Positions 1-48,005 of a stretch of DNA of 64,000 nt are shown here, piece after piece. A program made the translations under genes and the position numbers. This stretch comes from a virus, in IMG/VR virus record IMGVR_UViG_3300030202_002990, positions 1 to 64,000 of that record. One strand, written 5' to 3'. Position 1 is the stretch's first letter; every line of letters starts with the position of its first letter. Under the pieces are notes generated by a model. It did not search any database and had not been told where the DNA came from. It worked only from the letters and a program-made list of their open reading frames with translations.

Positions 1-3000
1 CAGTTGTAGCTAAAGTTCCTCTGACCGTAACCTTTTCAAACTCTGCTTCACCATTGTTTGCAGAAGTAATCCTCCAACCTTGAACTCCACTTGCAAAATC
101 TGATGTTTGAATAATACCAGCAGAATCTATTACCAAGTTTTGACTTGTGATTTGATTAGGACTTAATGACCAACTTGCTATCTGATTTTTAGCGTCACTA
201 AGGTGTACAATCTCATCTGAAGCTGTAGTACCAGTACCATCAAATATTACTAATCCGAAATGACTTGCAGCAGTTGAATCGACCTCACCTATTCTTACTC
301 GTGTAGCACTTCCATCGGAAACTTCTATTCGGGCGGTAGAGGAATCAATATCTAAGTTTGTAGTGTCGAGTAAAAATGTGTCGGTCTTTATATCGACATC
401 AGTTCCATCAAATTTGACATGACGATTCGAACCATCACCCACATAGAATCGTGGAGTTCCACTATTATACTCCAACTGAATACCTTGATTTCCAAATGTA
501 GCATCATTAATAGTAAGTGCTTTATTCGCTGAGTTTAGTGAAATATTTGTACCACTTTTAATCTCGTCAGCATCTATGGTAAAACCACCAATCGTACCAG
601 CGTTAGCAGTAATCGTACCAGTCATGGTCACATCACCATCAGTCGTGGTGGTTAAATTACCAGCTCCTATATTTAAAGTACCATCGGATTTTAAGAAAAA
701 TTTAGAAGAACTTATTTCTATATTACCCTCTGAACCACTTACATATGCACTTCCAGTAGCTCCCATAAAAAATTGTGGAGTCGCTATCGTAACTGAACTA
801 CCACTTAATGTGGTGTCACCAGTACTAAATATTTTTAAACTTCCACCACTACCACTTATAAAATTATTTAAATCTCCTAAGAAAAAGTCAGGTGCCTTTA
901 ATGTAATCTCACTACCACTTATGTTTGCCTTTTGAGTTCTGATATCAATATTAGTACCATCAAACTTAAAAAACTCACTTGAACCATCACCGACATACAT
1001 TCTTGGTGTACCACCATTGTATTCTAATTGTATACCTTGATTTCCAAATGTAGAATCATTTATTGTTAGTGCTTTAGTGGATGAGTTTAAGGCTATATTT
1101 CCAGCGTTTTTAATTTCATCAGAATCAATTGTAAATCCACCGATTTCACCAGTTGTGGCAGATATGTTACCTGACATAATGACATCACCTTCGGCATCTA
1201 AATGAAAATTACTTGAACTAATTTCTATATTACCATTACTACCACTTACAAATTGAGCTGAACTACCTAAGAAAAATTTAGAAGCACTCATTATTAAGTT
1301 AGTATTATCGAAACTTATTCTATTTCCATCAGCATCACCAATTAATACTTTACCAGTTCCATCGGCGTAAAATCCTTTATTAGTGGTGAGTGAGGTTGGT
1401 GGTGTTGCCCCTAATGCTATTTTTCCATCATTAGTTCCACTATCTATTACTAATTTAGTAGTTGCTAAATCAAATGTTTCGGCTTTAATATCTAATCCAC
1501 TACCATTAAATGATATGTAATTATCTCCATCGGATGCTATCTCAAATTTGGCAGTTCCATTGTCGGTTCCAAATATAATACCATCTGTTGATTGGTCAAA
1601 GTGACTAAATGATGTCTTGTCTCCAACCACCAAATACCTATCCGTTCCATCGTCCTTTAAAGTAATCGCGTTTGCTGCACCAACTGTAATTGTTGAGGTA
1701 GAGGCTCCTACTAATTTAATTTTACCTTCACCCAAACTCATACTTGCCTGTGTGGAAGATAACTCTAAATTACTCGCGTCTAATTCAAATTTAGCAGATT
1801 TTATATCAACATCAGCTCCATCAAATTTCAAATGTTTATTAGACCCATCACCTACATAAAATCTTGGTGTTCCACTATTATAGTCGAGTTGGACTCCTTG
1901 AGCTCCAAATGTAGAACTATTAATTGTAATTCTTTTATTGGTAGAATCTAAAGATACATTAGTTCCTTTTTTAATTTCTGTCGGTGTAATATCCCAACCA
2001 GCAATTGAAGCAGATTTAAAAGTAGCTAAACCATTTTCATCTATGGATGAAGAAGCGTTTAGGTCGGTTGATGTTGCCCCACCAATACTTGCAGGTGTTC
2101 TAATTGTATTGGCCGTTATGTCACCTTGAACAGTCAGAGTGGAACCAACAAATTGTAAAAATTGACCTGCTGACTTGTCACCCAATATTACTGCTGAACC
2201 AGTTATCTGTCCACTTGACCTTAATATTAAGCTATCATCTGTCGAAGCAATTGTAGAATCATCAACATCGAATCCACCAATTGATGCAGATACAAACCTT
2301 GCAAATCCTTCTGATGTGATTGATGATGAGGCATTTAATGTCGTAGATGTTGTCCCACCTATTTGTGCAGGTGTTCTTAAATTATTTACTGTTAAATCGG
2401 CATTAATTGTTGCATCTGCTCCAATGATTAATGCGTCATTTGCTGGGTCTAAATGAAATAATGAGGAACTAATTTCGATATTAGAATTACTACCACTCAT
2501 AAATTGAGTGTTGGTATTACCAATAAAGAATGCTTCAGCAACTATATCAATATTACTACCATCGAACTGAACATGATTACCACTTCCACTTCCAATCAAT
2601 AGTTTACCAGTACCATCCACATAGAAACCATTACCACTATTATATGCTGTAGGTGGAACAGGCCCCATCGCTATCTTACCACTATTTACCGAACTATCAA
2701 TTACGATTGTTGAGGCGTCTAAGAAAAATGTTTGTGATTTAAGTGTTATGGTACCTGAGGTGGCATTATATTGAACCCTATTTCCACTACTACTTCCAAG
2801 TAGTAAATTTCCACCACCATCAACGAAGAAACCAGTTCCACTATCGAAAGCTGAAGGTGGTGATGCTCCAAGTGCAATACTACCCGTACTATCACTTTTC
2901 ATCACTAATGTCGATGCATCTAAATCAAATGTATCGGTCTTGAGTTCTATTGAATTTCCAGTAGAATCAAATTTAAAGAAGTTTGATGAGTTCCCAAAAA

Positions 3001-6000
3001 GTAGGAAGTCACCACTTCCACTCATAAAGATACCTTTATTTGTTCCTGCTATTGATGTGTTAGGTGTTGTACCAAGTGCAATACTTCCACCACCTGCCGA
3101 ATCAACATCAAAAGTAGAGGTATCAAGTTTAAAAGTATCAGTACTTATATCTAATCCAGTTCCATTAAATTTTATATGACCACCACTTCCTACCGCTGAA
3201 AATAATGGTGTTGTACCACTCGCAACTGCAAGTATTATTCCTGTTTCTCCAAAAGCTTTATCTGCAAGAGCTACACTTGGTTGTAATGCTATAAATGGAC
3301 TATTACTATTACCTCTTATAACAACTTCTTGACCAGTTCCCAAAGACATGGAAGCGTGTGTCGTAGATAGTTCAAGTGAAGGTGTATCTAATTCAAATAA
3401 AGTTGTCTTAATTGATACACCATTACTCGAATCATATCTTAAAAAGTTTTGGGCCCCATCACCAGCGTAAAATCTTGGACTTCCACCATTGAATCCTAAT
3501 TGTATTCCTTCATTTGCGAAGGTATGAGAGTTTATGGATATTTCTGAATTATCTCCATTAGCATTAAGTCTAATTCCACTACCATTACTTGTTAAATTTG
3601 TATCATTTATTGTCCAACCTGCTATTTCACCACCACTAAATTTAGCGTTAGAACCTGTTATATCACCATTCTGTTTTACATTAAATTTTGAGGTGCTAAT
3701 GAACATATATCTTGGGTCATCAACTCCACCCTCTAATGGACTACCACTAATGAATAGGTCACTACTGAATAAAGAGGAACTACCAATTGTAAATCCACCG
3801 ATTAAACCTGAACTTGCAGATATTGAACCTTGAAATGTAGCTCCACTTGCAAATAAAATACCATCCTTATCCACACCAAAGTTTGGCCCCATCTTTATGT
3901 AATAACCTGACGAGTCACCACCTTCAGGTGTAAAGTCTATATAATACTCATCTCTTAATTGTGGAAAGGCTGCTGAACTATCAGTATTAGGTCCTTGGTC
4001 TGATTTATAAAGTGCTGCACCATCTGCATCTAATGTAGCATTTGAACCTGATAATTTACTACCAAATATTTTCCAACCAGCTATTGAACCCGATTTAAAT
4101 GTTGCTAGTCCGTCTGCGGTTATGGAAGCAGATGCATTTAATACTGTAGAAGGTGAACCTGCTATAACTGCTGGTGTTGTAATTGAATCAACGGTGATAT
4201 CACCACGAACAGTTAATACATTATCTATGTATTGTAAATATTGAGCGGCAGATTTGTCACCGAGTAAAACTGCAGAACCTGTTATTTCTCCAGTATCTTT
4301 TAATTTTAATATTTCACCAACAGAAACCGTTCCCTCAGAAACATCTAATCCACCTACACTTCCACCTTCAAGTTGTAATGACGATGCTGATACCTCACCA
4401 GTTGCCCTTACTTGAAAGTTTGATGATGATATAAAGAAATCTGTGCCTGTTGCAGAACCACTTATAAAAAAGTTTGGTCTGTCATTGGGTCCTGAAAATA
4501 AAGAGTCGTTATTAAGTTTAAATGCACCTATTGAGGCAGATACAAACCTAGCAAAACCTTCAGATGTAATGGCTGCCTTTGCAGTTTGTGCATTAGTACC
4601 AGCTGGTGAGAATATATTATTAACACTTAAATCTGCATTTATAACAGCATCAGCTCCAATTGTTAATAAATCATTCTTTGGGTCTAAGTGAAACAACGAT
4701 GAACTAATTTCGATATTACCACCACTACCACTTATGAACTGTAATGGCTCTTGACCTATAAAAAATGCATCTGTTCTGATATCGAGTTCTGCTGGGTCTG
4801 TTCTAAATCTAAAGTAACTTCCACTATGTCCAACTAATTCTAATCCAACTCCACCGTTTGCATAATCATCTGTAATGTTTGATAACACCGAACCACTATA
4901 TAGTAGAAAACCAGGTCCTTGACTTGGATACGCTGAACCACTTGTAAATCCTTTGTATCCAATACTACGAAGAAATCCTGAACTAACACCTGCCATTTCG
5001 ATACCACCACCGATTGAACTACCGATGAACATGGAACCACTTAATACATTATCATCTCCAAGTATGTAAGAATTACCACCTTGAAATGTTGATGCCGAAG
5101 CAAATGATATTGTTTCTGCAATATTATTATTTACATCATAAAATTCCGCCAAGAACTCGTAATCATCAGGTCGCTCTTGAGTTAATGGTGGTACAGGTGC
5201 TATAACTTGTATAAAATTAGGTGAAAATCCAGTATCAGTAGCAGGAGTAATACTTACATCGGATACATGAAATCTTCCACCAAATACTACAAATTGTAAA
5301 ACTCCTGTTCCATCCCTTACTGGTGAAAAGGTCTCGTTTATTGTTCCGAAATCTTGTATATTACCATCTGTAACTTTTAAGAAGCCTGGTTTATTATTTA
5401 TATTAGTTAATTGAAATCCAAGTTGACTTCCAAAATCATGGTTGTTTTCAAAACCTGAACCCGAAATAAATATTGCTGCTAAACCTTGATTTGATATGGA
5501 TTCATCTATATTTGTTTTAGGTCCTGTGAAACCTAATACATTTGCACTTATTTCATATTCCGTATCTTTGAGGTAACTTATTGGTAATGAACCAGTTTGT
5601 TGGAACAATAGGAAGTCATCCTTACCTAAATTCGATCCTGAAACCGCTACTGAATTTAATATATATTGAGAGTCTTGAGTCAATAATGTATTTGAGCCAG
5701 ATGACCAATATAAATTTACATGGTCTTGACTGTGAAAGTAACCAATTCTTTGATTACCTGCTCCAAATACATTAAATAATAATTCAGGTGATTCAATTTG
5801 TTGGTCGGACACCATTTCAAAATCACCAAAGGCATCCTTATTTCTTGCGTAAACTTTAACCCTATCTATATCTCCACTAAATGTTCTTAACCTTGATAAT
5901 CTAATATCAGCATATGACCTAAAATTTACAGTCGATATTGATTGAGTTGGTAATGGTGAAAATGAAGCAGTAAACTCAAACCCTTCATTTGCTAGTGGAA

Positions 6001-6964
6001 CAATTACTTCCCTTTCAGGTGAATCTTCATCGAAACGAGTATCTATTATTGTAAATGGTGTACTTGGTATTAGTGTTTCGGCATTTTTAACATTCTCAAT
6101 GTCACTTTTATATGAAGTAGGAACTTCATGAAAATCTTTAAGTTCAAATTTAGAAGTATCAACTTGAGGATTTTTTATTGTTAATTCACCACCAATTAAT
6201 TTTGCATCAAATTCATTACCTGCCTTTTTAGTAATGGTGAATTTGTCTCCCTCTGGTGATGAGCGACGGGCTCTTCTTCTACCCTTCCTTACAAATGAAT
6301 TATTACCACCTCCACCGAATAGTTTAGTACGAAATGAATTTTTTTCTTTCTTTAGAAATTTACCAGGTTCTTCAATTTGTTTAGTATTTGTTGTATTACC
6401 TAACTCTTCAGGTGATGGTTCACCAGTAACATTACCTGTTTGTTGAACAGAACCACTTGGTGTAGTTGTAGTTATATAAGGTTTTACAATCTCTGAAACA
6501 ACCATTCTTGGTTGTTGATAAAAAAGTATTGGTTGAGTATTTACCCCAGCGGCACTAACATAAATTTTTCTTGTATATCTTACATTGTAAACACCTTGAA
6601 AATCAATAGGTACATCGGTCTTTGAGGGGTCAAGTTCACCAACTACGGTTAATGTTGAATCACCAAATAAATTAATATCTTCGTAAACTTCGACAGAAAC
6701 TCTACGAGAAGTACCTTCGAGATAACCAGCTACAGGCTCGGTATAGACTACAGCACCTGTATCATCATTCGTAATTTCGAATTTTATTTCAGTCTGAGGT
6801 TTTAATAGATTTGAACCACCGATTAAGAAAGAACTTTTACCTTGAGTTATTACCTCAGGTACTTCAACTACATTAAAATAGAGAGATATTGGTGCGTCAT
6901 CTTCAATCAAAACATCAATATTTGCTAAACCTTGTGGCTCATTAAATCGTCTTGGGACTGACAT
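1..6964 (-). CDS. Very large tail fibre / host-specificity-like virion protein (>2320 aa, 3' end outside window)
   Basis: Not in the ORF track. ATG at 6964 with AGGAG SD; reads MSVPRRFNEPQGLANIDV. The same frame gives FISGSGGNIEISSSLFHLD near 4738 and NNGEAEFEKVTVRGTLATT at the window edge. Gly/Ser-rich internal repeats. Frame spot-checked, not read at every codon. Confidence 0.8.
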   Translation of the reverse strand, partial: MSVPRRFNEPQGLANIDVLIEDDAPISLYFNVVEVPEVITQGKSSFLIGGSNLLKPQTEIKFEITNDDTGAVVYTEPVAGYLEGTSRRVSVEVYEDINLFGDSTLTVVGELDPSKTDVPIDFQGVYNVRYTRKIYVSAAGVNTQPILFYQQPRMVVSEIVKPYITTTTPSGSVQQTGNVTGEPSPEELGNTTNTKQIEEPGKFLKKEKNSFRTKLFGGGGNNSFVRKGRRRARRSSPEGDKFTITKKAGNEFDAKLIGGELTIKNPQVDTSKFELKDFHEVPTSYKSDIENVKNAETLIPSTPFTIIDTRFDEDSPEREVIVPLANEGFEFTASFSPLPTQSISTVNFRSYADIRLSRLRTFSGDIDRVKVYARNKDAFGDFEMVSDQQIESPELLFNVFGAGNQRIGYFHSQDHVNLYWSSGSNTLLTQDSQYILNSVAVSGSNLGKDDFLLFQQTGSLPISYLKDTEYEISANVLGFTGPKTNIDESISNQGLAAIFISGSGFENNHDFGSQLGFQLTNINNKPGFLKVTDGNIQDFGTINETFSPVRDGTGVLQFVVFGGRFHVSDVSITPATDTGFSPNFIQVIAPVPPLTQERPDDYEFLAEFYDVNNNIAETISFASASTFQGGNSYILGDDNVLSGSMFIGSSIGGGIEMAGVSSGFLRSIGYKGFTSGSAYPSQGPGFLLYSGSVLSNITDDYANGGVGLELVGHSGSYFRFRTDPAELDIRTDAFFIGQEPLQFISGSGGNIEISSSLFHLDPKNDLLTIGADAVINADLSVNNIFSPAGTNAQTAKAAITSEGFARFVSASIGAFKLNNDSLFSGPNDRPNFFISGSATGTDFFISSSNFQVRATGEVSASSLQLEGGSVGGLDVSEGTVSVGEILKLKDTGEITGSAVLLGDKSAAQYLQYIDNVLTVRGDITVDSITTPAVIAGSPSTVLNASASITADGLATFKSGSIAGWKIFGSKLSGSNATLDADGAALYKSDQGPNTDSSAAFPQLRDEYYIDFTPEGGDSSGYYIKMGPNFGVDKDGILFASGATFQGSISASSGLIGGFTIGSSSLFSSDLFISGSPLEGGVDDPRYMFISTSKFNVKQNGDITGSNAKFSGGEIAGWTINDTNLTSNGSGIRLNANGDNSEISINSHTFANEGIQLGFNGGSPRFYAGDGAQNFLRYDSSNGVSIKTTLFELDTPSLELSTTHASMSLGTGQEVVIRGNSNSPFIALQPSVALADKAFGETGIILAVASGTTPLFSAVGSGGHIKFNGTGLDISTDTFKLDTSTFDVDSAGGGSIALGTTPNTSIAGTNKGIFMSGSGDFLLFGNSSNFFKFDSTGNSIELKTDTFDLDASTLVMKSDSTGSIALGASPPSAFDSGTGFFVDGGGNLLLGSSSGNRVQYNATSGTITLKSQTFFLDASTIVIDSSVNSGKIAMGPVPPTAYNSGNGFYVDGTGKLLIGSGSGNHVQFDGSNIDIVAEAFFIGNTNTQFMSGSNSNIEISSSLFHLDPANDALIIGADATINADLTVNNLRTPAQIGGTTSTTLNASSSITSEGFARFVSASIGGFDVDDSTIASTDDSLILRSSGQITGSAVILGDKSAGQFLQFVGSTLTVQGDITANTIRTPASIGGATSTDLNASSSIDENGLATFKSASIAGWDITPTEIKKGTNVSLDSTNKRITINSSTFGAQGVQLDYNSGTPRFYVGDGSNKHLKFDGADVDIKSAKFELDASNLELSSTQASMSLGEGKIKLVGASTSTITVGAANAITLKDDGTDRYLVVGDKTSFSHFDQSTDGIIFGTDNGTAKFEIASDGDNYISFNGSGLDIKAETFDLATTKLVIDSGTNDGKIALGATPPTSLTTNKGFYADGTGKVLIGDADGNRISFDNTNLIMSASKFFLGSSAQFVSGSNGNIEISSSNFHLDAEGDVIMSGNISATTGEIGGFTIDSDEIKNAGNIALNSSTKALTINDSTFGNQGIQLEYNGGTPRMYVGDGSSEFFKFDGTNIDIRTQKANISGSEITLKAPDFFLGDLNNFISGSGGSLKIFSTGDTTLSGSSVTIATPQFFMGATGSAYVSGSEGNIEISSSKFFLKSDGTLNIGAGNLTTTTDGDVTMTGTITANAGTIGGFTIDADEIKSGTNISLNSANKALTINDATFGNQGIQLEYNSGTPRFYVGDGSNRHVKFDGTDVDIKTDTFLLDTTNLDIDSSTARIEVSDGSATRVRIGEVDSTAASHFGLVIFDGTGTTASDEIVHLSDAKNQIASWSLSPNQITSQNLVIDSAGIIQTSDFASGVQGWRITSANNGEAEFEKVTVRGTLATT

Positions 6965-38307: not shown

Positions 38308-38529
38308 ATGAAGGAAATCATAACACTCGTCAAAGGTTGGGTAGATGATTTAGCTCATCTATTAATGTCCTTTGTTGCCATTGGTGCTATATCCGAAGTA
38401 ATATTCGGTACTGGTGTCTTCGGCGTTAATGTTATTGGTAACCTAACACTAATCATAAATAAATTCGGCGAATCCGGTTTCGCTGGGTTAGTCGCTTTAT
38501 TGGTGTTAGTGGGTTTATTCCGTAAATAG
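38308..38529 (+). CDS. Small hydrophobic membrane protein
   Basis: GGGAG SD; two hydrophobic segments; own promoter motif and terminator. Confidence 0.75.
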   Translation: MKEIITLVKGWVDDLAHLLMSFVAIGAISEVIFGTGVFGVNVIGNLTLIINKFGESGFAGLVALLVLVGLFRK

Positions 38530-38546
38530 CTATTATCGGTGCACAG

Positions 38547-38577
38547 AAAAGGGGGAATTCATTTCCCCCTTTTTTTT
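38547..38577 (+). terminator. Rho-independent terminator
   Basis: AAAAGGGGGAA-TTCAT-TTCCCCC followed by a T run. Confidence 0.85.
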
Positions 38578-38629
38578 GCTTTAAATTATGTATATTATGA
38601 GTTTATAAGGATATTTATTAACGATTGAT

Positions 38630-38866
38630 ATGTTTATCAATCATAACGCGTTATTAATGGAGAGTATTATGAAAACAATACTTACAAGTATACTTTCTTT
38701 ATTTATCTTTTTTGGTGCTGTTCCAACTGCTAATGCTTCAGATATGAACAATAGTGCTGGAATGGAAGAAGTCAAGAAGAAGAAAAAGAAAGGTAAGAAG
38801 ATAGGTGGTAAGAAAGGGAAGAAATCTAAGAAAGGTTTTTTCTCTAAAATCTTCGGAAGTAAATAA
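38630..38866 (+). CDS. Signal-peptide protein with Lys-rich tail (start probably at MKTIL)
   Basis: MKTILTSILSLFIFFGAVPTANA then KKKKKKGKKIGGKKGKKSKKGFFSKIFGSK. Confidence 0.65.
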   Translation: MFINHNALLMESIMKTILTSILSLFIFFGAVPTANASDMNNSAGMEEVKKKKKKGKKIGGKKGKKSKKGFFSKIFGSK

Positions 38867-39019: not shown

Positions 39020-39337
39020 TTATTTTAGTTGTAATTTCTGTACCCAATCAGGTACATTCTTTTCCATGTAATGTTGTATGACAAATGCTTCTACTATATG
39101 AGTAAAAAACCAAAAGAATGTTAATAGTGGAACAAATATCTGATAATCCATATCTAACTTACTTATACCCAACCAAGTTAAAAATATCATACCAATTGAT
39201 TTGGTTAAAAATCCCATTCCACTAAATCCCAAACTCATTATACTTCCTCGTTGCATCACGATATAAATTCCTACACATAGATGCATGAGATTTAGAAACA
39301 CTGGTGCTAAAACACCTAAAACAATATATTCAATCAT
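39020..39337 (-). CDS. Small multi-TM membrane protein (AtpI-like topology)
   Basis: Three hydrophobic helices; FLTKSIGMIF and FFTHIVEAF; family assignment tentative. Confidence 0.55.
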   Translation of the reverse strand: MIEYIVLGVLAPVFLNLMHLCVGIYIVMQRGSIMSLGFSGMGFLTKSIGMIFLTWLGISKLDMDYQIFVPLLTFFWFFTHIVEAFVIQHYMEKNVPDWVQKLQLK

Positions 39338-39347
39338 CAGTACTCCG

Positions 39348-39683
39348 TTATTTAAAAACTATCGGTAAAGTGTACTTTACTGTGACAGGTTTACCATTTT
39401 GGATTGCTGGATGATAAGAACTACTTCGTACTTTATCTAACACTACTTCATTAAGGTCAAGATTAAAAGTATCTCTGATAACAGGATTCTCTACTTCTCC
39501 CTTTTCATTTATAAAAAAATCCACAACTATTTTACCTTTTGGATTTTTTAAAAGTATATCTTCTCTAATGTCGTAGTATGTAAGTACGAATGGTACTTTG
39601 GGTTGGGGTAATTGACTCTCACCATTTGGTAAGTCTTGGGCTGTCAATAAGCCCATTAGCATTAGGTATGCTAGTGCTCTCAT
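39348..39683 (-). CDS. Stand-alone TonB C-terminal domain protein
   Basis: Short signal-like N-terminus; GKIVVDFFINEKGEVENPVI...YHPAIQNGKPVTVKYTLPIVFK. Confidence 0.85.
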   Translation of the reverse strand: MRALAYLMLMGLLTAQDLPNGESQLPQPKVPFVLTYYDIREDILLKNPKGKIVVDFFINEKGEVENPVIRDTFNLDLNEVVLDKVRSSSYHPAIQNGKPVTVKYTLPIVFK

Positions 39684-39823
39684 CGGTTTTCTCCTTTATT
39701 TAGTGATAAGACTATGTTTCCGGTTTCTTGAAAAGTATTTCTACTTTTCAAAACATAATTATCTTATATATTTAGAAAAAACACTTTTATTTACTTATTT
39801 TGTGATAGTTTTTTGTTAGATTG

Positions 39824-40453
39824 TTAAACTTTTTTCATTTTATATTCTAACTGAGATAATAAATTATTTATCTTTTCTAATTTGGGATGATTGGGGTTTT
39901 TTTCTAAAAGTTTATCTTTTGTATTCATCAACTTACCATAGGCCTTCTGTAAATCTATTAGAGCAATTCCTTTCATACTTCGTCTGTAATATAGATGGTC
40001 AAGTGCTTCATCTTCTGCTTCAGCACCACGAACACCAGCAACTGCTGTTATCTGTTCTACTTCTCCGTATATGGTATCTTCTACATCTTGTATTTCTTGC
40101 CATACAGTATTATCCCACATGGCATCTAAATCTAAATTATCCATCTCTGCCAATGCTTCTTGTGTATCTATACTATCTTGTTTGGCCCGTTCTATTTTTC
40201 TGAGTCTATCCCTTTCAGCAAATTCTTTATCTAAATTTACAGAACGGATTGAATCACATTCAGATATCCACCCACCATAACCTTTCCAAGCAGGTGAACC
40301 TTTATAATCTCTATATTCCGTATCATCACAATCTTGTCCAAATGCAACATCTCGTTTAAACTCAGATGTTCTTGTGATACCTTGGTCTGTAAAGACTTGT
40401 TCGTCTACTTGTGAATACATAACACTTACTAACAATAATGGTAAGTATTTCAT
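39824..40453 (-). CDS. Exported hypothetical protein
   Basis: Signal-like N-terminus; acidic; TAVAGVRG motif. Confidence 0.65.
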   Translation of the reverse strand: MKYLPLLLVSVMYSQVDEQVFTDQGITRTSEFKRDVAFGQDCDDTEYRDYKGSPAWKGYGGWISECDSIRSVNLDKEFAERDRLRKIERAKQDSIDTQEALAEMDNLDLDAMWDNTVWQEIQDVEDTIYGEVEQITAVAGVRGAEAEDEALDHLYYRRSMKGIALIDLQKAYGKLMNTKDKLLEKNPNHPKLEKINNLLSQLEYKMKKV

Positions 40454-40572
40454 TTTTCTCTCTGTTGTTCAATTCTTTTTTTCTTCTTGTATTTCTTTAT
40501 TGTTTGTTTCTCGTCTAATTCCCAAATAAGACAAGCTCCTAAACAAATAATGATTAGAGGTGCCCAACTCAT
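40450..40572 (-). CDS. Small single-TM protein, 40 aa
   Basis: MSWAPLIIICLGACLIWELDEKQTIKKYKKKKRIEQQREK; overlaps both neighbours by 4 nt. Confidence 0.55.
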   Translation of the reverse strand: MSWAPLIIICLGACLIWELDEKQTIKKYKKKKRIEQQREK

Positions 40573-40994
40573 AATATTTCTATTTCGGTTCCTATACCTC
40601 TCTTATCATATTGTGTTCCAACTACTATCGTATAAAAACCTGGTTCTATGTTAGATGACCATTCCGTTCTATATAATTTCCATGTATATGTTTCGATTCT
40701 TTTTCTTCCATCTCTATGTGGACTTAGAGAGATAGGTGTTTGATGTACACTCTTTCCATTTCCATCAAACATAAATAACTTGGTTTTTTTTCTTTTTACT
40801 TCGTATCTGACCTTTACACAAGGTCCTCCTTTTCTATCATAGTCCAACCAAGCAACAATTGGATGTTCATCGAAATCTACTAATGATGGGGTTACTACTG
40901 TAGGTTTAGAATCTTTTTCGGGTGAGAATATCACATATGCTAAACATATAAAGATTCCACCATACAAAAGTAATTCTTTTATTTGATTACTCAT
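40569..40994 (-). CDS. Membrane-anchored protein with FlgD-like Ig domain
   Basis: N-terminal TM; KLFMFDGNGKSV...YTW...IEPGFYTIVV pattern. Confidence 0.55.
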   Translation of the reverse strand: MSNQIKELLLYGGIFICLAYVIFSPEKDSKPTVVTPSLVDFDEHPIVAWLDYDRKGGPCVKVRYEVKRKKTKLFMFDGNGKSVHQTPISLSPHRDGRKRIETYTWKLYRTEWSSNIEPGFYTIVVGTQYDKRGIGTEIEIL

Positions 40995-40995
40995 A

Positions 40996-41442
40996 TTATT
41001 GTGCTATATATCTAATTGGTTCCTCAGATAATTCAAATGATGTAGAATCATATGTATAATAATAAATTTCATCGTCACGCCTGTGATGAAAGATAGCAGG
41101 TTCTTCAGCATCAATCAAACTAAACTGCCATTCGTTATCCTCATCAGGTACACCCAATGTTAAATTTATCTTGATATTACGAGTTCTACCCATGACTGTG
41201 AGTGGATTATAAGGCCATGATTCATTTCCAGTTTCGATTAGCTTATCACTTGCGTAAGTTTCACACCCTGCCCATATTGTATCTACAGTCGTCTTTTCAG
41301 CTGATACTGCTGCTGAGTTTAAAACAGATGTCATCTTAGGGACAGCCACTGCTGATAATATTCCTAAGATGACCATAACCATTACTAATTCTACTAAAGA
41401 AAAACCTTCATTCATTTTCTCTTTCAGTATTTTTTTTATCAT
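40996..41442 (-). CDS. Type IV pilin-like protein (prepilin N-methylation motif)
   Basis: EG|FSLVELVMVMVILGILSAVAVPKM. Confidence 0.9.
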   Translation of the reverse strand: MIKKILKEKMNEGFSLVELVMVMVILGILSAVAVPKMTSVLNSAAVSAEKTTVDTIWAGCETYASDKLIETGNESWPYNPLTVMGRTRNIKINLTLGVPDEDNEWQFSLIDAEEPAIFHHRRDDEIYYYTYDSTSFELSEEPIRYIAQ

Positions 41443-41444
41443 TT

Positions 41445-41915
41445 TTATTGTCCTTCCAAATCTCGTCTATATACAACTTGATTTGGTTGATATGGTGGAT
41501 TGGAATATCCAATCTCACCCGTTGATGAATTATAAGTCCAAACTGCTAAACTATCTTCTTTCCTACGATGAACTATTGAATTTTTAAAATCATTACTTGC
41601 TTCACCAGTAAAAATCCAATCACTATCGTTCATCTCTACCATCAAAGTGGTATTTGATTTGTCGTAGGATTGTGGTACTTTATTAAGTGCGTCAAATGGA
41701 TTGTTTGGCCACTCTTGGACACCATTATCGATAAACTCTTCTTGACTATAAGTATCTAAAGCAGCGACCAAATTAATCAAAACTCCTTGTTCGGAAGCTG
41801 CTTCGGATTGTCGGACAATATTTGTAAATCTCGGTATCGAAACTGCGGCTAAAATTCCAATGATTACCATTACCATAATCAGTTCGACTAAGGTAAAACC
41901 ATTCTTTCTATTCAC
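41445..41915 (-). CDS. Type IV pilin-like protein (prepilin N-methylation motif)
   Basis: NG|FTLVELIMVMVIIGILAAVSIPRF. Confidence 0.92.
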   Translation of the reverse strand: MNRKNGFTLVELIMVMVIIGILAAVSIPRFTNIVRQSEAASEQGVLINLVAALDTYSQEEFIDNGVQEWPNNPFDALNKVPQSYDKSNTTLMVEMNDSDWIFTGEASNDFKNSIVHRRKEDSLAVWTYNSSTGEIGYSNPPYQPNQVVYRRDLEGQ

Positions 41916-42357
41916 TTGACAGACTTTCTCGGTTTCCTAAGAATCCAGTAGTGTCTGCATCTGTTCCTGTGTTTACTCCTGCGTCATACTCCCACTTAAA
42001 CCTTGAGTTGTCTGAGCGTTGATGAGTAATGTAAGCTGGGTCACCATCTACAAATGTCCACTCGTTATCTGTGTCGGCGTTTGTACCATCATCAGTATAA
42101 GTTTGTGGTTTGTCTTTAAGTGCGTCAAAGGGATTATCTGGCCATATAGCTCTTCCACTATCTATGAGTTTATGAACTCCATAGTTTTCGAGTGCTACAC
42201 CAATATTACTGACGACAGCATCTTCAGAAGCTTCTTCAGCTTTTGTAATGGTCTCCAAGTATCTTGGGATAGCGACAGCTGATAATATACCTAATATTAT
42301 CATTACCATGATTAATTCAATCAAGGTAAATCCGTCTTGGTTATTTAGTTTCTTCAT
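41908..42357 (-). CDS. Type IV pilin-like protein (prepilin N-methylation motif)
   Basis: DG|FTLIELIMVMIILGILSAVAIPRY. Confidence 0.92.
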   Translation of the reverse strand: MKKLNNQDGFTLIELIMVMIILGILSAVAIPRYLETITKAEEASEDAVVSNIGVALENYGVHKLIDSGRAIWPDNPFDALKDKPQTYTDDGTNADTDNEWTFVDGDPAYITHQRSDNSRFKWEYDAGVNTGTDADTTGFLGNRESLSSE

Positions 42358-42388
42358 TTTCTTGTCCTTTCAGGTTTGTTATTAAGAA

Positions 42389-43057
42389 TTAAGGTACTAA
42401 AGTTTTATGTAGTTTAGATGGGTTCTCAGTATCTATCACGACAAGAACAGGTGCCTGTGCTGATGTACCACTACCACTTCCTGGTATAATTAGGTAAGCG
42501 TATGAACCATCCTGAAATGGTGAGGTTAAACCATTGTTACCAAAATCTTGTTTGAAGTCAAGAGCACCAATTTCAGAGTTACCATCGTAACCAACTGATG
42601 TTTCAAGACTCATCCAATCGTTTTGTAAAGCGTCATCATCATCGGAAGATGGTGAGAACACATATACGAATTCACTAAGGTCATCTGTATAAGATTCTTT
42701 TTGGTCAAGGATAGTTTCTACATATGCTTCAAGTGTTTCGTCTGTAGATGCATCTTCGGATAAATCAACACCACCAACGGCGACATCATACTTTTCTTGT
42801 CCTGGAAATCTTCCTTTTCCTTCTTCAGATAATGTTTGGTTATAAAAGTTGTTTGCTACAGTTAAGATTTTATCAATGTTTGCCATTGTCTTTTTCTCTT
42901 TAGCACCTGCACCAACTGCACCAAATTTTGGAGCGGCTGTTGTAGCTAATGTAGCCATCATTGCAGTAGTAACAGCGAATTCAGCTAGTGAATTACCATT
43001 AGTACTCTTGAGTTTTCTCATAAAAGATTTTACGAGTTTCTTTATTGTTTCGAACAT
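42389..43057 (-). CDS. Atypical type IV pilin-like protein
   Basis: Basic leader then NG|NSLAEFAVTTAMMATLATTAAPKF (Gly-1, Glu+5, Pro22 kept); GRFPG; SPFQDGSYAY; AAGGAG SD. Confidence 0.75.
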   Translation of the reverse strand: MFETIKKLVKSFMRKLKSTNGNSLAEFAVTTAMMATLATTAAPKFGAVGAGAKEKKTMANIDKILTVANNFYNQTLSEEGKGRFPGQEKYDVAVGGVDLSEDASTDETLEAYVETILDQKESYTDDLSEFVYVFSPSSDDDDALQNDWMSLETSVGYDGNSEIGALDFKQDFGNNGLTSPFQDGSYAYLIIPGSGSGTSAQAPVLVVIDTENPSKLHKTLVP

Positions 43058-43119
43058 TTCAGTTCTCCTTCTTTTGTATTTTTCTAATAGATTCGAATAA
43101 CCTATTCCTACCTATATGG

Positions 43120-43136
43120 TACAATAACTGTACCAA
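43120..43136 (-). promoter_or_regulatory. Candidate sigma54 (-24/-12) promoter of the pilin operon
   Basis: Minus strand TTGGTACAGTTATTGTA vs consensus YTGGCACGRNNNTTGCW; correct spacing, but GT replaces GC at -12. Confidence 0.55.
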
Positions 43137-43198
43137 AGTACCCCAATTTTTAAAGTTTTTTTTATGTTACAATATTGTTGTACTTAGAAGTAGGCAAT

Positions 43199-43226
43199 AA
43201 AAAACCACTTGAATAAGTGGTCTTTT
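43199..43226 (-). terminator. Intrinsic terminator after the sigma-factor gene
   Basis: Minus strand ACCACTT-ATTC-AAGTGGT followed by a T run. Confidence 0.65.
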
Positions 43227-43242
43227 ACATTGTGTATTGTTT

Positions 43243-43259
43243 TGTTACTCTATGTAACA
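43243..43259. promoter_or_regulatory. Palindromic TGT-N11-ACA site, candidate enhancer-binding-protein site
   Basis: TGTTAC-TCTAT-GTAACA about 110 bp upstream of the candidate -24 box. Confidence 0.45.
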
Positions 43260-43277
43260 GTTTGTAATATCATTTTG

Positions 43278-43997
43278 TTACAAAAACGAACCTGTACTTT
43301 GGGTATCAATCATACCATTATTTAGATATTCAGTAGAAAGATTCTGATGATATTTTTTCATCGTGTTGACAATTCGAGTAATGTGTTGTGTTTTGGAACC
43401 ACTCATCTCACGAATCATAATGTACAATGCCTTCTTGTTGAAGTTTTCAATATGTTCAGACCTTCTGAATATTTCCAATACAGAATCAGCAACCAATATA
43501 TCTTTCTTTCTTGTAAAAACATTAGTGATATTGTTTTCCCAATACTCAATAAATTGATTTACATACTCTTTGACACTTTCATTTTCTTCAGCCGTATTCA
43601 TCTCTTCTTTATTTTTCTTATTCCAATCTAACACATCCAAACCATCATGTGATTTATAATGAGCATAATTTTTATTATTGTGTAGAATTAGATAATTCTT
43701 AGCAACAATACTAAAGTATGAGAAAGCCTTTCCCTTACCTTCTTTGAATTTATGCATATTTAATACCAAAAATGATATTACTTCTTGTTTAACTTGTTCA
43801 CTTGAAACATCAAAGTAATAAAACTTAAATGTATGAATTATATTTTCACATAATTTATCAAACGCCCTTCTTATATGGTCGTTGTAAATTCTTTCTTTCA
43901 TGTAAGCCCGTTCTTCTTTATTGTAACGGATTATTGCATCTTCAGTTCCTTGTGTGAAATAATATCTTGGTGAACTTTTTTTAGCTTTTCTTGGCAT
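43278..43997 (-). CDS. Phage sigma-factor-like protein (T4 gp55-like late sigma)
   Basis: YYFTQ..EDAIIRY; KLCENII; HKFKEGKGKAFSYFSIVAKNYLI resembles sigma region 2. Confidence 0.7.
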   Translation of the reverse strand: MPRKAKKSSPRYYFTQGTEDAIIRYNKEERAYMKERIYNDHIRRAFDKLCENIIHTFKFYYFDVSSEQVKQEVISFLVLNMHKFKEGKGKAFSYFSIVAKNYLILHNNKNYAHYKSHDGLDVLDWNKKNKEEMNTAEENESVKEYVNQFIEYWENNITNVFTRKKDILVADSVLEIFRRSEHIENFNKKALYIMIREMSGSKTQHITRIVNTMKKYHQNLSTEYLNNGMIDTQSTGSFL

Positions 43998-44256
43998 TTG
44001 TGTCCTCTTCTATGTATTGGTTTAATTCTTCAATTGTTTCTTTGATGGATGTAAATATACTACCGATTTCGTCATCTGATTCAAAATGACCAGTAGAATC
44101 TATCGTTTGAATTTCTTCATAAGTACTAGCTACTCTGTCACTAAAGTCCTCGACCCAAGTTTCTAATAACTCTACCTTGTTAAGTAAGTTCCAAACAACA
44201 TAACTCTCGGTAATAAAAATTACAACCATTAATCCTAAAATAATTTCTAATATCAT
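43981..44256 (-). CDS. Single-TM hypothetical protein
   Basis: N-terminal TM; IDSTGHFESDDEIG. Confidence 0.65.
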   Translation of the reverse strand: MILEIILGLMVVIFITESYVVWNLLNKVELLETWVEDFSDRVASTYEEIQTIDSTGHFESDDEIGSIFTSIKETIEELNQYIEEDTNAKKS

Positions 44257-44462
44257 TCTTCCACCACCCCAACAGAAACTTCAACTTCATTAGCTGGTCT
44301 CCATTCACTATCTCCATCATCCCAATCAATATCCTCTACCCATTCAGGTTCATCAATATCACCAGCTTGGAACTTTCTATATTCTTCAGCTTGTTCTTCT
44401 GTTATTTCAACATTAGTCCAAACATCATTTTCTTGTATTGTGTATCTTTGTAAATACGGCAT
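44253..44462 (-). CDS. Small acidic hypothetical protein
   Basis: 69 aa, very Asp/Glu-rich. Confidence 0.6.
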   Translation of the reverse strand: MPYLQRYTIQENDVWTNVEITEEQAEEYRKFQAGDIDEPEWVEDIDWDDGDSEWRPANEVEVSVGVVEE

Positions 44463-47573: not shown

Positions 47574-47592
47574 GTGTTTTCTTGCTGTTTTG

Positions 47593-48005
47593 TGGAGGTG
47601 TGGGGATTCGAACCCCAGTCCTGTTTATTATTAATATTAAGTCATTCACAGTTTAGTTAGGTTACTACCCTCTGAGAAGTTACCTACAAACCACCAACTA
47701 TTTTCTTGGATAGCTCCGTATGTTCTTTTATACTCATAACATGAGGAGTTGATGTCTAACTTATTTTATGACCGAGTGTTAGACAACTCAGTAACTTATG
47801 CGTAAGCGTAAGTTGGTTGGTCATTCTGAACAGGAGTGACAAAGTTGTCAAATCCCATTTCAGCATTGGCTAAATGCCAATCAATGTCCAACCCTTCAAG
47901 CGATTTATCGCCATTTGAGTTTCGTTGGGTTTTATTTAAGAGTTTACCCAAACTCTACTGCACTTAAATATCAACCAATACCAGTCGATTTCCAAGTTCA
48001 CCCCC
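47593..48005 (-). ncRNA. ssrA: tmRNA
   Basis: 5' GGGGGTG pairs with 3' CACCTCC-A including G3:U; T-arm GGGGTTCGAATCCCC; 5' ...GGAAATCGAC; PK1 AGAGTTT-GGGT-AAACTCT...ACCC; tag ORF 47912-47796 ending YAYA-stop. Confidence 0.92.

What the first reader, a model, noticed from the sequence alone, without database searches (positions are those of the whole stretch)
40996..43057. Phage-encoded operon of four type IV pilins
Seen: four tandem genes with prepilin-peptidase sites (G|FSLVE, G|FTLVE, G|FTLIE, atypical G|NSLAE) in a genome with baseplate, primase and sigma-like genes. Three are paralogs sharing WPxNP and D.(E/D)W.F...I.H.R.D. No peptidase, ATPase, platform or secretin gene occurs in the window. 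Known: such leaders are processed by host PilD-type peptidase, and type IV pili are common phage receptors. Inference: phage pilins enter or poison the host pilus, giving superinfection exclusion, receptor switching or altered adhesion. Co-oriented downstream exported proteins (39824-40994) may belong to the same unit.
Basis: partly seen in the sequence, partly recalled or inferred. Interest (0 to 1): 0.88.

Follow-up and report, generated by a model that had tools for sequence, protein, structure and literature searches.

The report
Host-derived pilin cassette in marine phage
A large uncultured marine phage carries four type IV pilin genes copied from the pilus locus of its probable host, the SAR406/Marinimicrobia bacteria, and must rely on the host's machinery to build them into pili, most likely to change the surface of the infected cell.

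Summary
Four tandem minus-strand genes (40996-43057) have prepilin-type N-termini. Three pass Pfam N_methyl. The fourth (p222, G|NSLAEF) matches no family model, but its profile hits pilin N-termini in PDB (E 8.5e-5).

The block is not a chimera. The order p222, 1-3 pilins, p141, p209 recurs in dozens of IMG/VR phage loci, and independent contigs bridge both junctions.

The cassette derives from the host. Marinimicrobia genomes hold p222 homologues (42% identity, N-terminal helix nearly identical) followed by 9-16 tandem pilins of the same family. These sit inside a full pilus locus: PilD, MshE-like ATPase, sigma-54 activator, PilC and secretin. The phage record and five larger relatives show no peptidase or assembly ATPase.

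A sigma-54-type element (TGGTAC-N5-TTGT) lies upstream of p222 in 43 of 50 phage loci. Host p222 genes carry TGGCAC-N5-TTGC/T.

All six genes are under purifying selection, and RNA-library contigs from three studies cover the cassette.

Best reading: the phage pilins are processed and assembled by host machinery and remodel the host pilus, probably to block phage adsorption. That purpose is inferred, not shown. Prophage FimU, phage PilA-like genes and archaeal SNJ2 pilins are published precedents, so I class this as a new variant of a known kind. It also gives a host lead for an abundant phage clade.

The parts
43166..43281 (-). Four GTTAC/GTAAC half-sites (43281-43277, 43258-43254, 43248-43244, 43170-43166). 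They are candidate activator-binding sites upstream of the promoter-like element. Three lie at the 3' end of, or just behind, the upstream gene.
   Evidence: Read. In phage loci such half-sites average 2.37 per 150 nt upstream of the -24 element, against a background of 0.31. The loci are related, so this shows conservation and is not an independent test.
43198..43222 (-). Hairpin plus T-run, an intrinsic-terminator-like site that closes the upstream gene (43278-43997) and sets the cassette apart.
   Evidence: Sequence. The same inverted repeat is listed at 43204-43221.
43109..43135 (-). Sigma-54-type promoter-like element TGGTAC-N5-TTGT, followed by a conserved TATATAGGTA. Standard -24/-12 spacing would put the start near 43109.
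   Evidence: It is present in 43 of 50 distinct phage upstream regions and 6 of 7 host ones. It is the only match in the window that lies in an intergenic stretch on the coding strand.
42389..43057 (-). p222: an atypical type IV pilin-like protein. It has a 21-aa basic leader, G|NSLAEF, E at +5 and P at +22, and a roughly 180-aa C-terminal domain.
41908..42357 (-). pilA149: a canonical prepilin (G|FTLIE). It sits in a clade with Marinimicrobia pilins that are 60-65% identical.
41445..41915 (-). pilB156: a canonical prepilin (G|FTLVE). Its nearest host paralogues are 50-53% identical. Its start overlaps the end of pilA149 by 8 nt.
40996..41442 (-). pilC148: a canonical prepilin (G|FSLVE). It belongs to a clade found only in phage loci and is present in every cassette architecture.
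40569..40994 (-). p141: an N-terminal membrane anchor plus a roughly 100-aa beta-rich domain. It is phage-specific and conserved directly downstream of the pilins.
39824..40453 (-). p209: a signal-peptide protein with two invariant Cys residues and a conserved AVAGVRGAEAEDEAL motif. It is phage-specific and conserved in the module.

Best explanation
The block is a pilin cassette that a clade of large marine myophages captured from the type IV pilus locus of their host. The probable host is a family-level lineage of Marinimicrobia (SAR406).

The cassette holds one atypical pilin (p222) and, in this phage, three canonical GFxxxE pilins. Two phage-specific exported proteins (p141 and p209) follow.

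It is read from a host-like sigma-54-type promoter, so it probably needs the host's RpoN and an activator.

The phage has no peptidase, ATPase, platform or secretin. The prepilins must therefore be cut by the host PilD and polymerised by the host's MshE-like ATPase and PilC machine. They would end up in the infected cell's own pili, mixing with or replacing host subunits.

The most likely benefit is a changed pilus surface that stops further phages, rivals or siblings, from adsorbing.

Shown here: gene identity, host origin, conserved synteny, lack of machinery in the phage, purifying selection, and presence in RNA libraries.

Inferred: processing, co-assembly, sigma-54 dependence and the anti-adsorption purpose. 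I put about 0.85 on the first set and about 0.4 on the specific purpose.
For: (1) Pilin identity.
- N_methyl and TIGR02532 are passed by 3 of 4 proteins.
- The p222 profile hits pilin N-termini in PDB: Geopilin E 8.5e-5 and 7.5e-4, MshA E 0.018.
- The pilA149 model (pLDDT 84) has a long N-terminal helix (residues 12-67) and a 4-strand sheet.
- Its best structural match is the Shewanella MshA pilus (Z 6.5, rmsd 3.4, 107 aligned). 17 of the top 20 rows are pilins or pseudopilins.
- For p222, the seven best rows that cover residues 47-222 are all pilins or pseudopilins (Z 4.3-5.2).

(2) Not a chimera.
- p222 lies directly upstream in 60 of 65 loci, and p141 or p209 lies downstream in 62 of 67.
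- The loci come from many different metagenomes.
- DNA contigs of a separate study bridge 39300-41548 and 42968-43517 with 0 differences.

(3) Host origin.
- Contigs titled Marinimicrobia or Neomarinimicrobiota, and long contigs of the same lineage (583 kb and 220 kb), hold two p222 homologues followed by 9-16 tandem pilins. Identity to pilA149 is 60-65% and to p222 42%.
- Around them lie PilD, a T2SSE/MshEN ATPase, a sigma-54 activator, T2SSF, a PilM-like gene and a secretin. rpoN is present in the genome.
- p222 residues 21-60 are 33 of 40 identical to the host protein, against 57 of 152 for the rest.
- Full-length p222 occurs in 30 of 54 genomes of that GTDB family. In an 81-genome sample of the phylum it occurs only in G001.
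- GC is 33-35% in both phage and host loci.

(4) Repeated exchange. The tree needs at least 3-4 host/phage changes. The pilA149 type groups with 5 host rows (99*). The pilC148 type is a phage-only clade of 32 rows (100*).

(5) No machinery in the phage. No A24 peptidase and no T2SSE match above threshold were found in this record or in 5 relatives that are 52-72% complete.

(6) Promoter.

(7) Functional genes. dN/dS is 0.06-0.23 in the 16 of 18 pairs that could be computed.

(8) RNA libraries. Contigs of three studies cover the cassette, for example a 1,711-nt contig over 40888-42601 and a 1,820-nt contig over 40990-42812.

(9) Precedent. Prophage FimU is built into the pilus and blocks phage adsorption. 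PilA-like genes occur in non-temperate phages (PMC12952977, abstract and section 17). SNJ2 provirus pilins hijack host machinery (PMC12426801, abstract and Discussion).
Against: - Nothing here shows cleavage, assembly or any phenotype.
- The fold evidence is modest. Foldseek gave no significant match for either model. The VIA Z scores of 4.3-6.5 are in a range the tool itself calls common.
- p222 has N or Q at +1 and fails the N_methyl model.
- The -12 element reads GT, not the consensus GC. Sigma-54 dependence and activator availability during infection are untested. The phage encodes no activator: the 387-aa AAA+ protein that touches the Sigma54_activat model looks MoxR/CobS-like.
- The host assignment rests on gene homology, GC content and promoter likeness only.
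- One member of the p222 cluster is labelled as a Flavobacteriaceae MAG.
- The phage tmRNA has no DNA match in the two host genomes.
- The nearest cultured phages infect Microcystis and Flavobacterium.
- pilC148, p141 and p209 have no host counterpart in the 14 host loci examined. The cassette may therefore do something the host locus does not.
- RNA-library contigs cannot exclude DNA carry-over, and they show no transcript start.
Confidence: 0.55

Rival explanations
1. Maintenance or boost of a useful host function, in the style of an auxiliary metabolic gene. The phage supplies fresh pilins so that the infected cell keeps or increases its pili during infection, for attachment to particles, DNA or nutrient capture, or position in the water column. 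Blocking other phages is not the point.
For: - The cassette mimics the host operon, including the promoter type.
- PHROG 3433 'pilin' is filed under 'moron, auxiliary metabolic gene and host takeover'.
- The genes are under strong purifying selection.
Against: - Phage pilins are only 35-65% identical to host ones in their exposed parts, and pilC148 forms a phage-only clade. That fits a changed surface better than simple replacement.
- Nothing shows that host pilin supply limits anything during infection.
Confidence: 0.2
2. Dominant-negative poison. The phage pilins, perhaps together with p141 and p209, enter the host machine but stall or cap assembly. The infected cell loses its pili, and with them a phage receptor.
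For: - pilC148, p141 and p209 are phage-specific and always travel together.
- Truncated phage PilA-like proteins have been proposed to inhibit assembly (PMC12952977, section 17).
- Known phage proteins block PilB or PilC (PMC12426801, Discussion).
Against: - All four proteins are full-length with conserved globular domains.
- A single small inhibitor would be cheaper than four pilins.
- The copy number varies from 1 to 3, which looks like repertoire change rather than a fixed inhibitor.
Confidence: 0.15
3. Assembly chimera or host contamination: the pilin block is host DNA wrongly joined to a phage contig.
For: - The genes are clearly of host origin.
- The phage record is a linear fragment, 45% complete.
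Against: - The same gene order, flanked by phage genes (methyltransferase, HD protein, baseplate genes), recurs in dozens of IMG/VR contigs from different samples.
- Independent DNA contigs bridge both junctions with 0 differences.
- Composition across the block is flat.
- Phage copies form their own clades.
Confidence: 0.02
4. A pseudopilus or secretion role. The pilins act as a type II secretion-like piston that exports p141, p209 or other phage proteins. They do not build a surface fibre.
For: - The best NCBIfam row for the three pilins is GspG, at 34-42 bits against a cut-off of 88.85.
- Exported proteins follow in the same unit.
Against: - The GspG scores are far below the cut-off.
- The host locus carries an MshE-type ATPase with an MshEN domain and a PilM-like gene.
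- The best structural match is the MshA pilus.
Confidence: 0.05

Closest known systems
Prophage-encoded FimU (P-FimU) and phage PilA-like proteins of Pseudomonas and Xylella phages (Sztanko et al., Cell Rep 2026, PMC12952977; abstract and section 17 read)
   Same: - A phage gene copies a type IV pilus structural component and relies on the host machine.
- It is built into the pilus and protects against phages that bind it.
- The paper notes PilA-like genes in non-temperate phages as well.
   Different: - Here there is a four-gene cassette, including an unrecognised pilin class, plus two phage-specific exported proteins. P-FimU is a single minor pilin.
- The host is an uncultured marine phylum, and the phage is large and T4-like.
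- A host-like sigma-54-type promoter is kept.
- No function has been tested here.
- Their Table S3, which lists phage PilA-like proteins, is a supplement I could not open.
SNJ2 provirus pilins PilA1/PilA2 of Natrinema (Xiang et al., Cell Rep 2025, PMC12426801; abstract and Discussion read)
   Same: - Tandem virus-encoded type IV pilins without machinery.
- They are assembled by the host secretion system.
- They were acquired from host chromosomes several times.
   Different: - SNJ2 involves an archaeal pilus system and a temperate pleolipovirus.
- The SNJ2 pili serve as a receptor for a second virus.
- The present case is bacterial and probably lytic.
PHROG 3433 'pilin', for example the gene annotated 'pilin' in Synechococcus phage ACG-2014f
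   Same: These are pilin-like genes of marine myophages. They share the N-terminal methylation region.
   Different: - Similarity to this window covers only the first 42-48 residues or so.
- They are single genes, with no p222, p141 or p209.
MSHA-type type IV pili (MshA pilin, MshE ATPase)
   Same: - The host locus has a T2SSE ATPase with an MshEN domain.
- The pilA149 model is closest to the Shewanella MshA pilus subunit.
   Different: - Sequence identity to MshA is about 8% in the structural alignment.
- The host array of 9-16 paralogues plus p222-type genes is not the textbook MSHA operon as I recall it.

Membership tests
Type IV pilin (class III signal peptide) | Short basic leader ending in Gly at -1 | tested here: met
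   4 of 4 proteins...NG|N...DG|F...NG|F...EG|F. G21 is invariant in 35 p222 sequences. G is invariant in 48 pilin rows.
Type IV pilin (class III signal peptide) | Glu at +5, followed by a hydrophobic helix of about 20 residues ending at Pro +22 | tested here: met
   E at +5 in 4 of 4 proteins. P at +22 in p222 (P43) and in the three pilins (P31 of pilA149)..
Type IV pilin (class III signal peptide) | Match to Pfam N_methyl (PF07963) or TIGR02532 above the cut-off | tested here: met
   Met for the three GFxxxE proteins (27.6-35.0 bits, cut-off 21.2). NOT met for p222 (no hit). The p222 profile does match pilin N-termini in PDB at E 8.5e-5.
Type IV pilin (class III signal peptide) | Alpha-beta pilin fold: a long N-terminal helix packed on an antiparallel sheet | tested here: inconclusive
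   - pilA149 model: helix 12-67 plus 4 strands, pLDDT 84.
- VIA best match is MshA at Z 6.5, and 17 of the top 20 rows are pilins. Foldseek's best E is 0.17.
- p222 model: pLDDT 73.5. The best pilin rows have Z 4.3-5.2. Foldseek found nothing.
Type IV pilin (class III signal peptide) | Cleavage and N-methylation by a prepilin peptidase, and polymerisation by a PilB/PilC-type machine | not testable with these tools
   The machinery is absent from the phage and present beside the homologous host genes.
Flp/TadE-type (type IVc) pilin, considered for p222 | Match to the Flp or TadE family models. The G/xxxxE(Y/F) motif is recalled from the literature, not from a call. | tested here: not met
   p222 reads G|NSLAEF, which resembles the recalled motif. 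No Pfam family matched at E <= 0.1. The p222 profile matches type IVa/MSHA pilins instead.
Sigma-54-dependent promoter | GG at -24 and GC at -12 with fixed spacing (TGGCAC-N5-TTGC; consensus recalled) | tested here: inconclusive
   - The window has TGGTAC-N5-TTGT: GG and the spacing are kept, but -12 is GT.
- Host p222 genes have TGGCAC-N5-TTGC or TTGT.
- The element is conserved in 43 of 50 phage regions, against 0.0175 expected per region.
Sigma-54-dependent promoter | Host has RpoN and a cognate enhancer-binding activator | tested here: met
   Sigma54_DBD is found in both host genomes. A Sigma54_activat/HTH_8 activator sits inside the host pilus locus. Actual dependence is not testable here.
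Phage pilus-component mimic giving anti-phage defence (P-FimU type) | Incorporated into the host pilus and blocks adsorption of pilus-binding phages | not testable with these tools
   This rests on analogy with PMC12952977 only.

The most novel reading that the evidence does not exclude
The cassette makes a 'viral pilus'. A whole clade of abundant ocean myophages reprograms infected SAR406 cells to display fibres built from phage subunits. These include a pilin class found only in this host lineage and its phages (p222) and a phage-only pilin (pilC148), together with phage-only partners (p141 and p209). The cassette is switched on through the host's own sigma-54 and activator circuit. The new fibre changes what the infected cell sticks to, such as particles or neighbouring host cells, and so raises transmission, rather than merely hiding a receptor.
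Probability: 0.12. Interest if true: 0.85.

Novelty: new variant of a known kind. Interest (0 to 1): 0.6.

Why it matters
**Host lead.** Marinimicrobia (SAR406) are abundant and uncultured. The one paper I read on this point reports only viral fragments from single cells for this phylum (PMC4611503, passages read). The cassette gives a concrete, testable host lead for a widespread clade of large marine myophages.

**Scope of pilin mimicry.** It extends phage pilin mimicry from single genes in Pseudomonas and Xylella prophages and an archaeal provirus to a conserved multi-gene, promoter-bearing cassette in probably lytic ocean phages.

**A new pilin class.** p222 is a pilin class that current family models miss. 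It forms 552 clusters at E <= 0.001 among 1.84 billion representatives.

**Pilin arrays.** The large arrays of paralogous pilins in the host suggest that pili are a front line between these bacteria and their phages.

Tried and rejected
**Complex prediction.** pilC148 (residues 14-148) with p141 gave 'no answer' (score 0.00). This counts neither for nor against binding.

**Foldseek against PDB.** No significant match for the p222 model or the pilA149 model.

**p141 and p209.**
- No hit in Pfam, PHROGs or NCBIfam.
- No PDB sequence hit with their profiles.
- The Atlas gave only viral clusters and a weak Big_14 lead for p141, and nothing for p209.
- Their function stays open.

**tmRNA as a host link.** No DNA match in the two host genomes. 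This is uninformative.

**Phage-encoded sigma-54 activator.** The Sigma54_activat match (26.2 bits) in the phage record is a 387-aa MoxR/CobS-like AAA+ protein without the activator architecture. The family's control also fired in 14 of 14 control genomes. I rejected it as a phage-encoded activator.

**General phage promoter.** I considered that TGGTAC-N5-TTGT might be a general phage promoter read by the upstream 'sigma-like' gene. I rejected this. Of the 6 matches in the window, only this one lies in an intergenic stretch on the coding strand, and ATATAGGTA occurs once.

**RNA-library cover.** In the three RNA runs laid, no contig covered 43141-43640 or 39300-39800, while the DNA run covered all 30 bins. 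Two RNA contigs run about 26-28 unlike letters beyond 43071.

**Joints.** Joints that skip 41150/41154 to 42387/42388 occur in one DNA and one RNA contig, with short sides of 22-26 letters. They probably come from relatives with the one-pilin architecture. I did not use them.

**Literature.** I found no paper on pilin cassettes in Marinimicrobia phages. For most hits I saw the listings only. Supplements were closed, so Table S3 of PMC12952977 may list relatives.
Full report
**What is there.** The window is the first 64 kb of an 82,353-base linear IMG/VR virus record that CheckV rates 45% complete. Almost all ORFs lie on the minus strand. GC is flat at 31-37%. It carries phage genes such as a baseplate wedge subunit (PHROG 219, E 5.5e-17), an SbcC-like nuclease and a DNA methyltransferase. 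By baseplate wedge protein, the nearest cultured relatives are Microcystis phage Mel-JY01 (46.3% identity over 98% of the query), an uncultured 484-kb phage (39.0%) and Flavobacterium phage immuto (38.6%).

- p222, 42389-43057
- pilA149, 41908-42357
- pilB156, 41445-41915
- pilC148, 40996-41442

**Are they pilins?** The three shorter proteins pass Pfam N_methyl (34.7, 35.0 and 27.6 bits; cut-off 21.2) and NCBIfam TIGR02532, and they hit PHROG 3433 'pilin'. They are paralogues, 42% and 37% identical to the first, and share WPxNP and the D..W.F / I.H.R motifs.

An AlphaFold2 model of pilA149, built on 48 sequences (pLDDT 84), shows a helix over residues 12-67 and four strands. Foldseek found nothing significant; its best hit is the N. 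gonorrhoeae pilus at E 0.17. The exhaustive aligner put the Shewanella MshA pilus first (Z 6.5, rmsd 3.4, 107 residues aligned), and 17 of its top 20 rows are pilins or pseudopilins.

p222 matches no Pfam, PHROG or NCBIfam model. Its mature N-terminus nevertheless lines up position for position with a pilin: G at -1, E at +5, P at +22, K/R-F at +23/+24. Three further results bear on it:
- A profile of 35 homologues hits pilin N-termini among PDB sequences: Geopilin E 8.5e-5 and 7.5e-4, MshA 0.018.
- Its model has pLDDT 73.5 and gave no Foldseek match.
- The seven best rows of the exhaustive search that cover residues 47-222 are all pilins or pseudopilins, at a weak Z of 4.3-5.2.

I read p222 as a real but divergent pilin with N or Q at +1.

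**Not a chimera.** A scan of IMG/VR returned 80 loci. The order (late-region genes), p222, pilins, p141, p209, TonB_C protein, baseplate genes recurs across them.
- p222 lies directly upstream of the first pilin in 60 of 65 loci that have enough upstream sequence. Several of the 5 misses still show p222 nearby.
- p141 or p209 lies within 1.5 kb downstream in 62 of 67 loci.
- The 56 complete cassettes hold 1 (21 loci), 2 (19) or 3 (16) pilin genes. These loci were not dereplicated, and the counts come from ORFs plus BLAST, so the divergent middle pilin may be undercounted.
- 14 DNA runs hold half or more of the sampled words of 39300-44300; the 20 runs that hold any of the stretch come from 10 studies.
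- Contigs of one such run bridge 39300-41548 and 42968-43517 with 0 differences.

**Where the genes came from.** A scan of one genome per prokaryote species found near-full-length relatives of pilA149 (55-66% identity) almost only in contigs titled Marinimicrobia or Neomarinimicrobiota, or in unnamed marine MAGs. One 2.7-kb 'bacterial' contig (L085) is itself a phage-type cassette.

The unnamed contigs belong to the same lineage as the named ones:
- L093 (Neomarinimicrobiota) is 93.7% identical to L092 over 1,507 nt.
- L091 (a Marinimicrobia single-cell genome) is 90.5% identical to L089 over 3,521 nt.
- L096 aligns to L087 at 74% over 8.2 kb.

In the two long contigs (583 kb and 220 kb) the host locus reads as follows:
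- PilD-type peptidase
- T2SSE ATPase with an MshEN domain
- sigma-54 activator
- T2SSF platform
- Mrr-like gene
- two p222 homologues (42% and 35% identical to the phage p222)
- 9 (L092) or 16 (L087) tandem pilin genes of the same family
- further N_methyl proteins
- an 829-aa laminin-G protein
- an AAA_22/PilM_2 protein
- a secretin a little further on

Both genomes have rpoN. GC of these loci is 33-35%, like the phage.

Between phage and host p222, residues 21-60 are 33 of 40 identical, but the rest only 57 of 152. This is the pattern expected of subunits that must pack into the same fibre core yet show a different surface.

Full-length p222 occurs in 30 of 54 genomes of the host's GTDB family, often in 2-5 tandem copies. 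In a sample of 81 genomes of the phylum it occurs only in G001; 8 others matched only the N-terminal part. In 1.84 billion cluster representatives the family has 552 members at E <= 0.001 and 89 at E <= 1e-30.

**History of the cassette.** In a tree of 117 non-redundant pilins from these loci:
- pilC148-type genes form a phage-only clade (32 rows, support 100) that is present in all three architectures.
- pilA149-type genes sit in a clade with five host genes (12 rows, support 99).
- A further divergent pilin type is shared by other phages and the host (10 rows, support 100).
- Starred branches force at least 3-4 host/phage switches.

The tree has few columns and many unresolved forks, so I do not claim a direction or an order of events. 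All six genes of the unit are under purifying selection: dN/dS is 0.06-0.23 in 16 of 18 pairs, and 2 pairs were saturated.

**How it is probably expressed.** The upstream gene is followed by a hairpin with a T-run (43222-43198). About 60 nt before the p222 start lies TGGTAC-N5-TTGT, followed by TATATAGGTA.
- A match to TGG[CT]A[CT]-N5-TTG[CT] is found in 43 of 50 distinct phage upstream regions and 6 of 7 host p222 upstream regions. The background is 0.0175 per region.
- The host versions read TGGCAC-N5-TTGC or TTGT, the classic sigma-54 form as I recall it.
- The pattern occurs 6 times in the window against 1.18 expected. Only this copy is intergenic on the coding strand. ATATAGGTA occurs once.
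- GTTAC/GTAAC half-sites are enriched upstream: 2.37 against 0.31 per 150 nt.

The loci are related by descent, so these figures show conservation and are not independent tests. The comparison with the host is new here.

The phage has no activator of its own. The one Sigma54_activat match is a MoxR/CobS-like AAA+ protein.

RNA-library contigs from three studies cover the cassette, among them contigs of 1,711 and 1,820 nt that span pilC148 to p222 at about 95% identity. Contigs cannot show strand, start or level, and DNA carry-over is not excluded.

**What it most likely does.** The phage record and five relatives that are 52-72% complete contain no prepilin peptidase and no pilus ATPase above threshold. 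The proteins can only work through host PilD and the host MshE/PilC machine.

Two published cases show that this happens. Prophage FimU is built into the P. aeruginosa pilus and blocks phages that bind its tip, and the same paper lists PilA-like genes in non-temperate phages (PMC12952977, abstract and section 17). The SNJ2 provirus pilins are assembled by the archaeal host machinery (PMC12426801, abstract and Discussion).

By analogy I favour pilus remodelling that prevents further adsorption. Maintenance of pilus function, dominant-negative poisoning and a secretion role remain open. The phage-only parts (pilC148, p141, p209) are unexplained. A complex prediction for pilC148 with p141 gave no answer.

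**Weak points.**
- The host assignment rests on gene homology, promoter likeness and GC only.
- One p222-cluster member sits in a MAG labelled Flavobacteriaceae. This is probably a mis-binned phage contig, but I did not check it.
- The tmRNA gave no link to the host genomes.
- The structural matches are modest.
- No step of processing, assembly or phenotype has been shown.

**Verdict.** Phage pilin mimicry is in print, so this is a new variant of a known kind. What is new:
- the multi-gene, promoter-bearing cassette copied from a Marinimicrobia pilin array
- the unrecognised p222 pilin class
- the host lead for an abundant uncultured phage clade

Noticed in passing
window 47590-48005 (-): Rfam finds a full-length tmRNA (RF00023, 85.3 bits, model positions 1-374 of 374). 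ARAGORN reported no tRNA or tmRNA anywhere in the window. It has no DNA match in the two candidate host genomes.
   Followed up: partly
window 39348-39683 (-): A small protein (111 aa) with a signal-like N-terminus and a TonB_C domain (42.1 bits). It lies just downstream of the pilin unit and is conserved there in many related loci.
   Followed up: no
L087 7789-20035 and L092 4910-12580 (Marinimicrobia contigs): The host pilus locus holds 16 and 9 tandem pilin paralogues, preceded by two p222-type genes. In L087 a block of one p222-type gene with its upstream region is duplicated (identical upstream sequences at 8696 and 11178). Such large pilin arrays in a streamlined genome of about 2 Mb are striking.
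   Followed up: partly
G000 contig about 64.6-65.8 kb (L163 1009-2172, -), outside the window: A 387-aa AAA+ protein passes the Pfam Sigma54_activat cut-off (26.2 bits). By its sequence it looks like a MoxR/CobS-type ATPase, not an enhancer-binding protein.
   Followed up: partly
window 2-6964 (-): An open-ended ORF of at least 2,321 aa runs off the window. It was not analysed.
   Followed up: no
window 41150-42388: One DNA contig and one RNA-library contig join 41150/41154 to 42387/42388, skipping pilA149, pilB156 and part of pilC148. The sides are short (22-26 letters). The likely source is co-occurring relatives with the one-pilin architecture seen in L061-L083.
   Followed up: no
protein cluster of p222: One member of the 90%-identity cluster of phage p222 is deposited as a hypothetical protein of a Flavobacteriaceae MAG (14.5-kb contig). 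It is either a mis-binned phage contig or a hint against the Marinimicrobia host.
   Followed up: no
window 38308-38866 (+): These are the only plus-strand genes near the cassette: two small membrane or secreted proteins, each followed by a strong GGGGAA...TTCCCC terminator.
   Followed up: no
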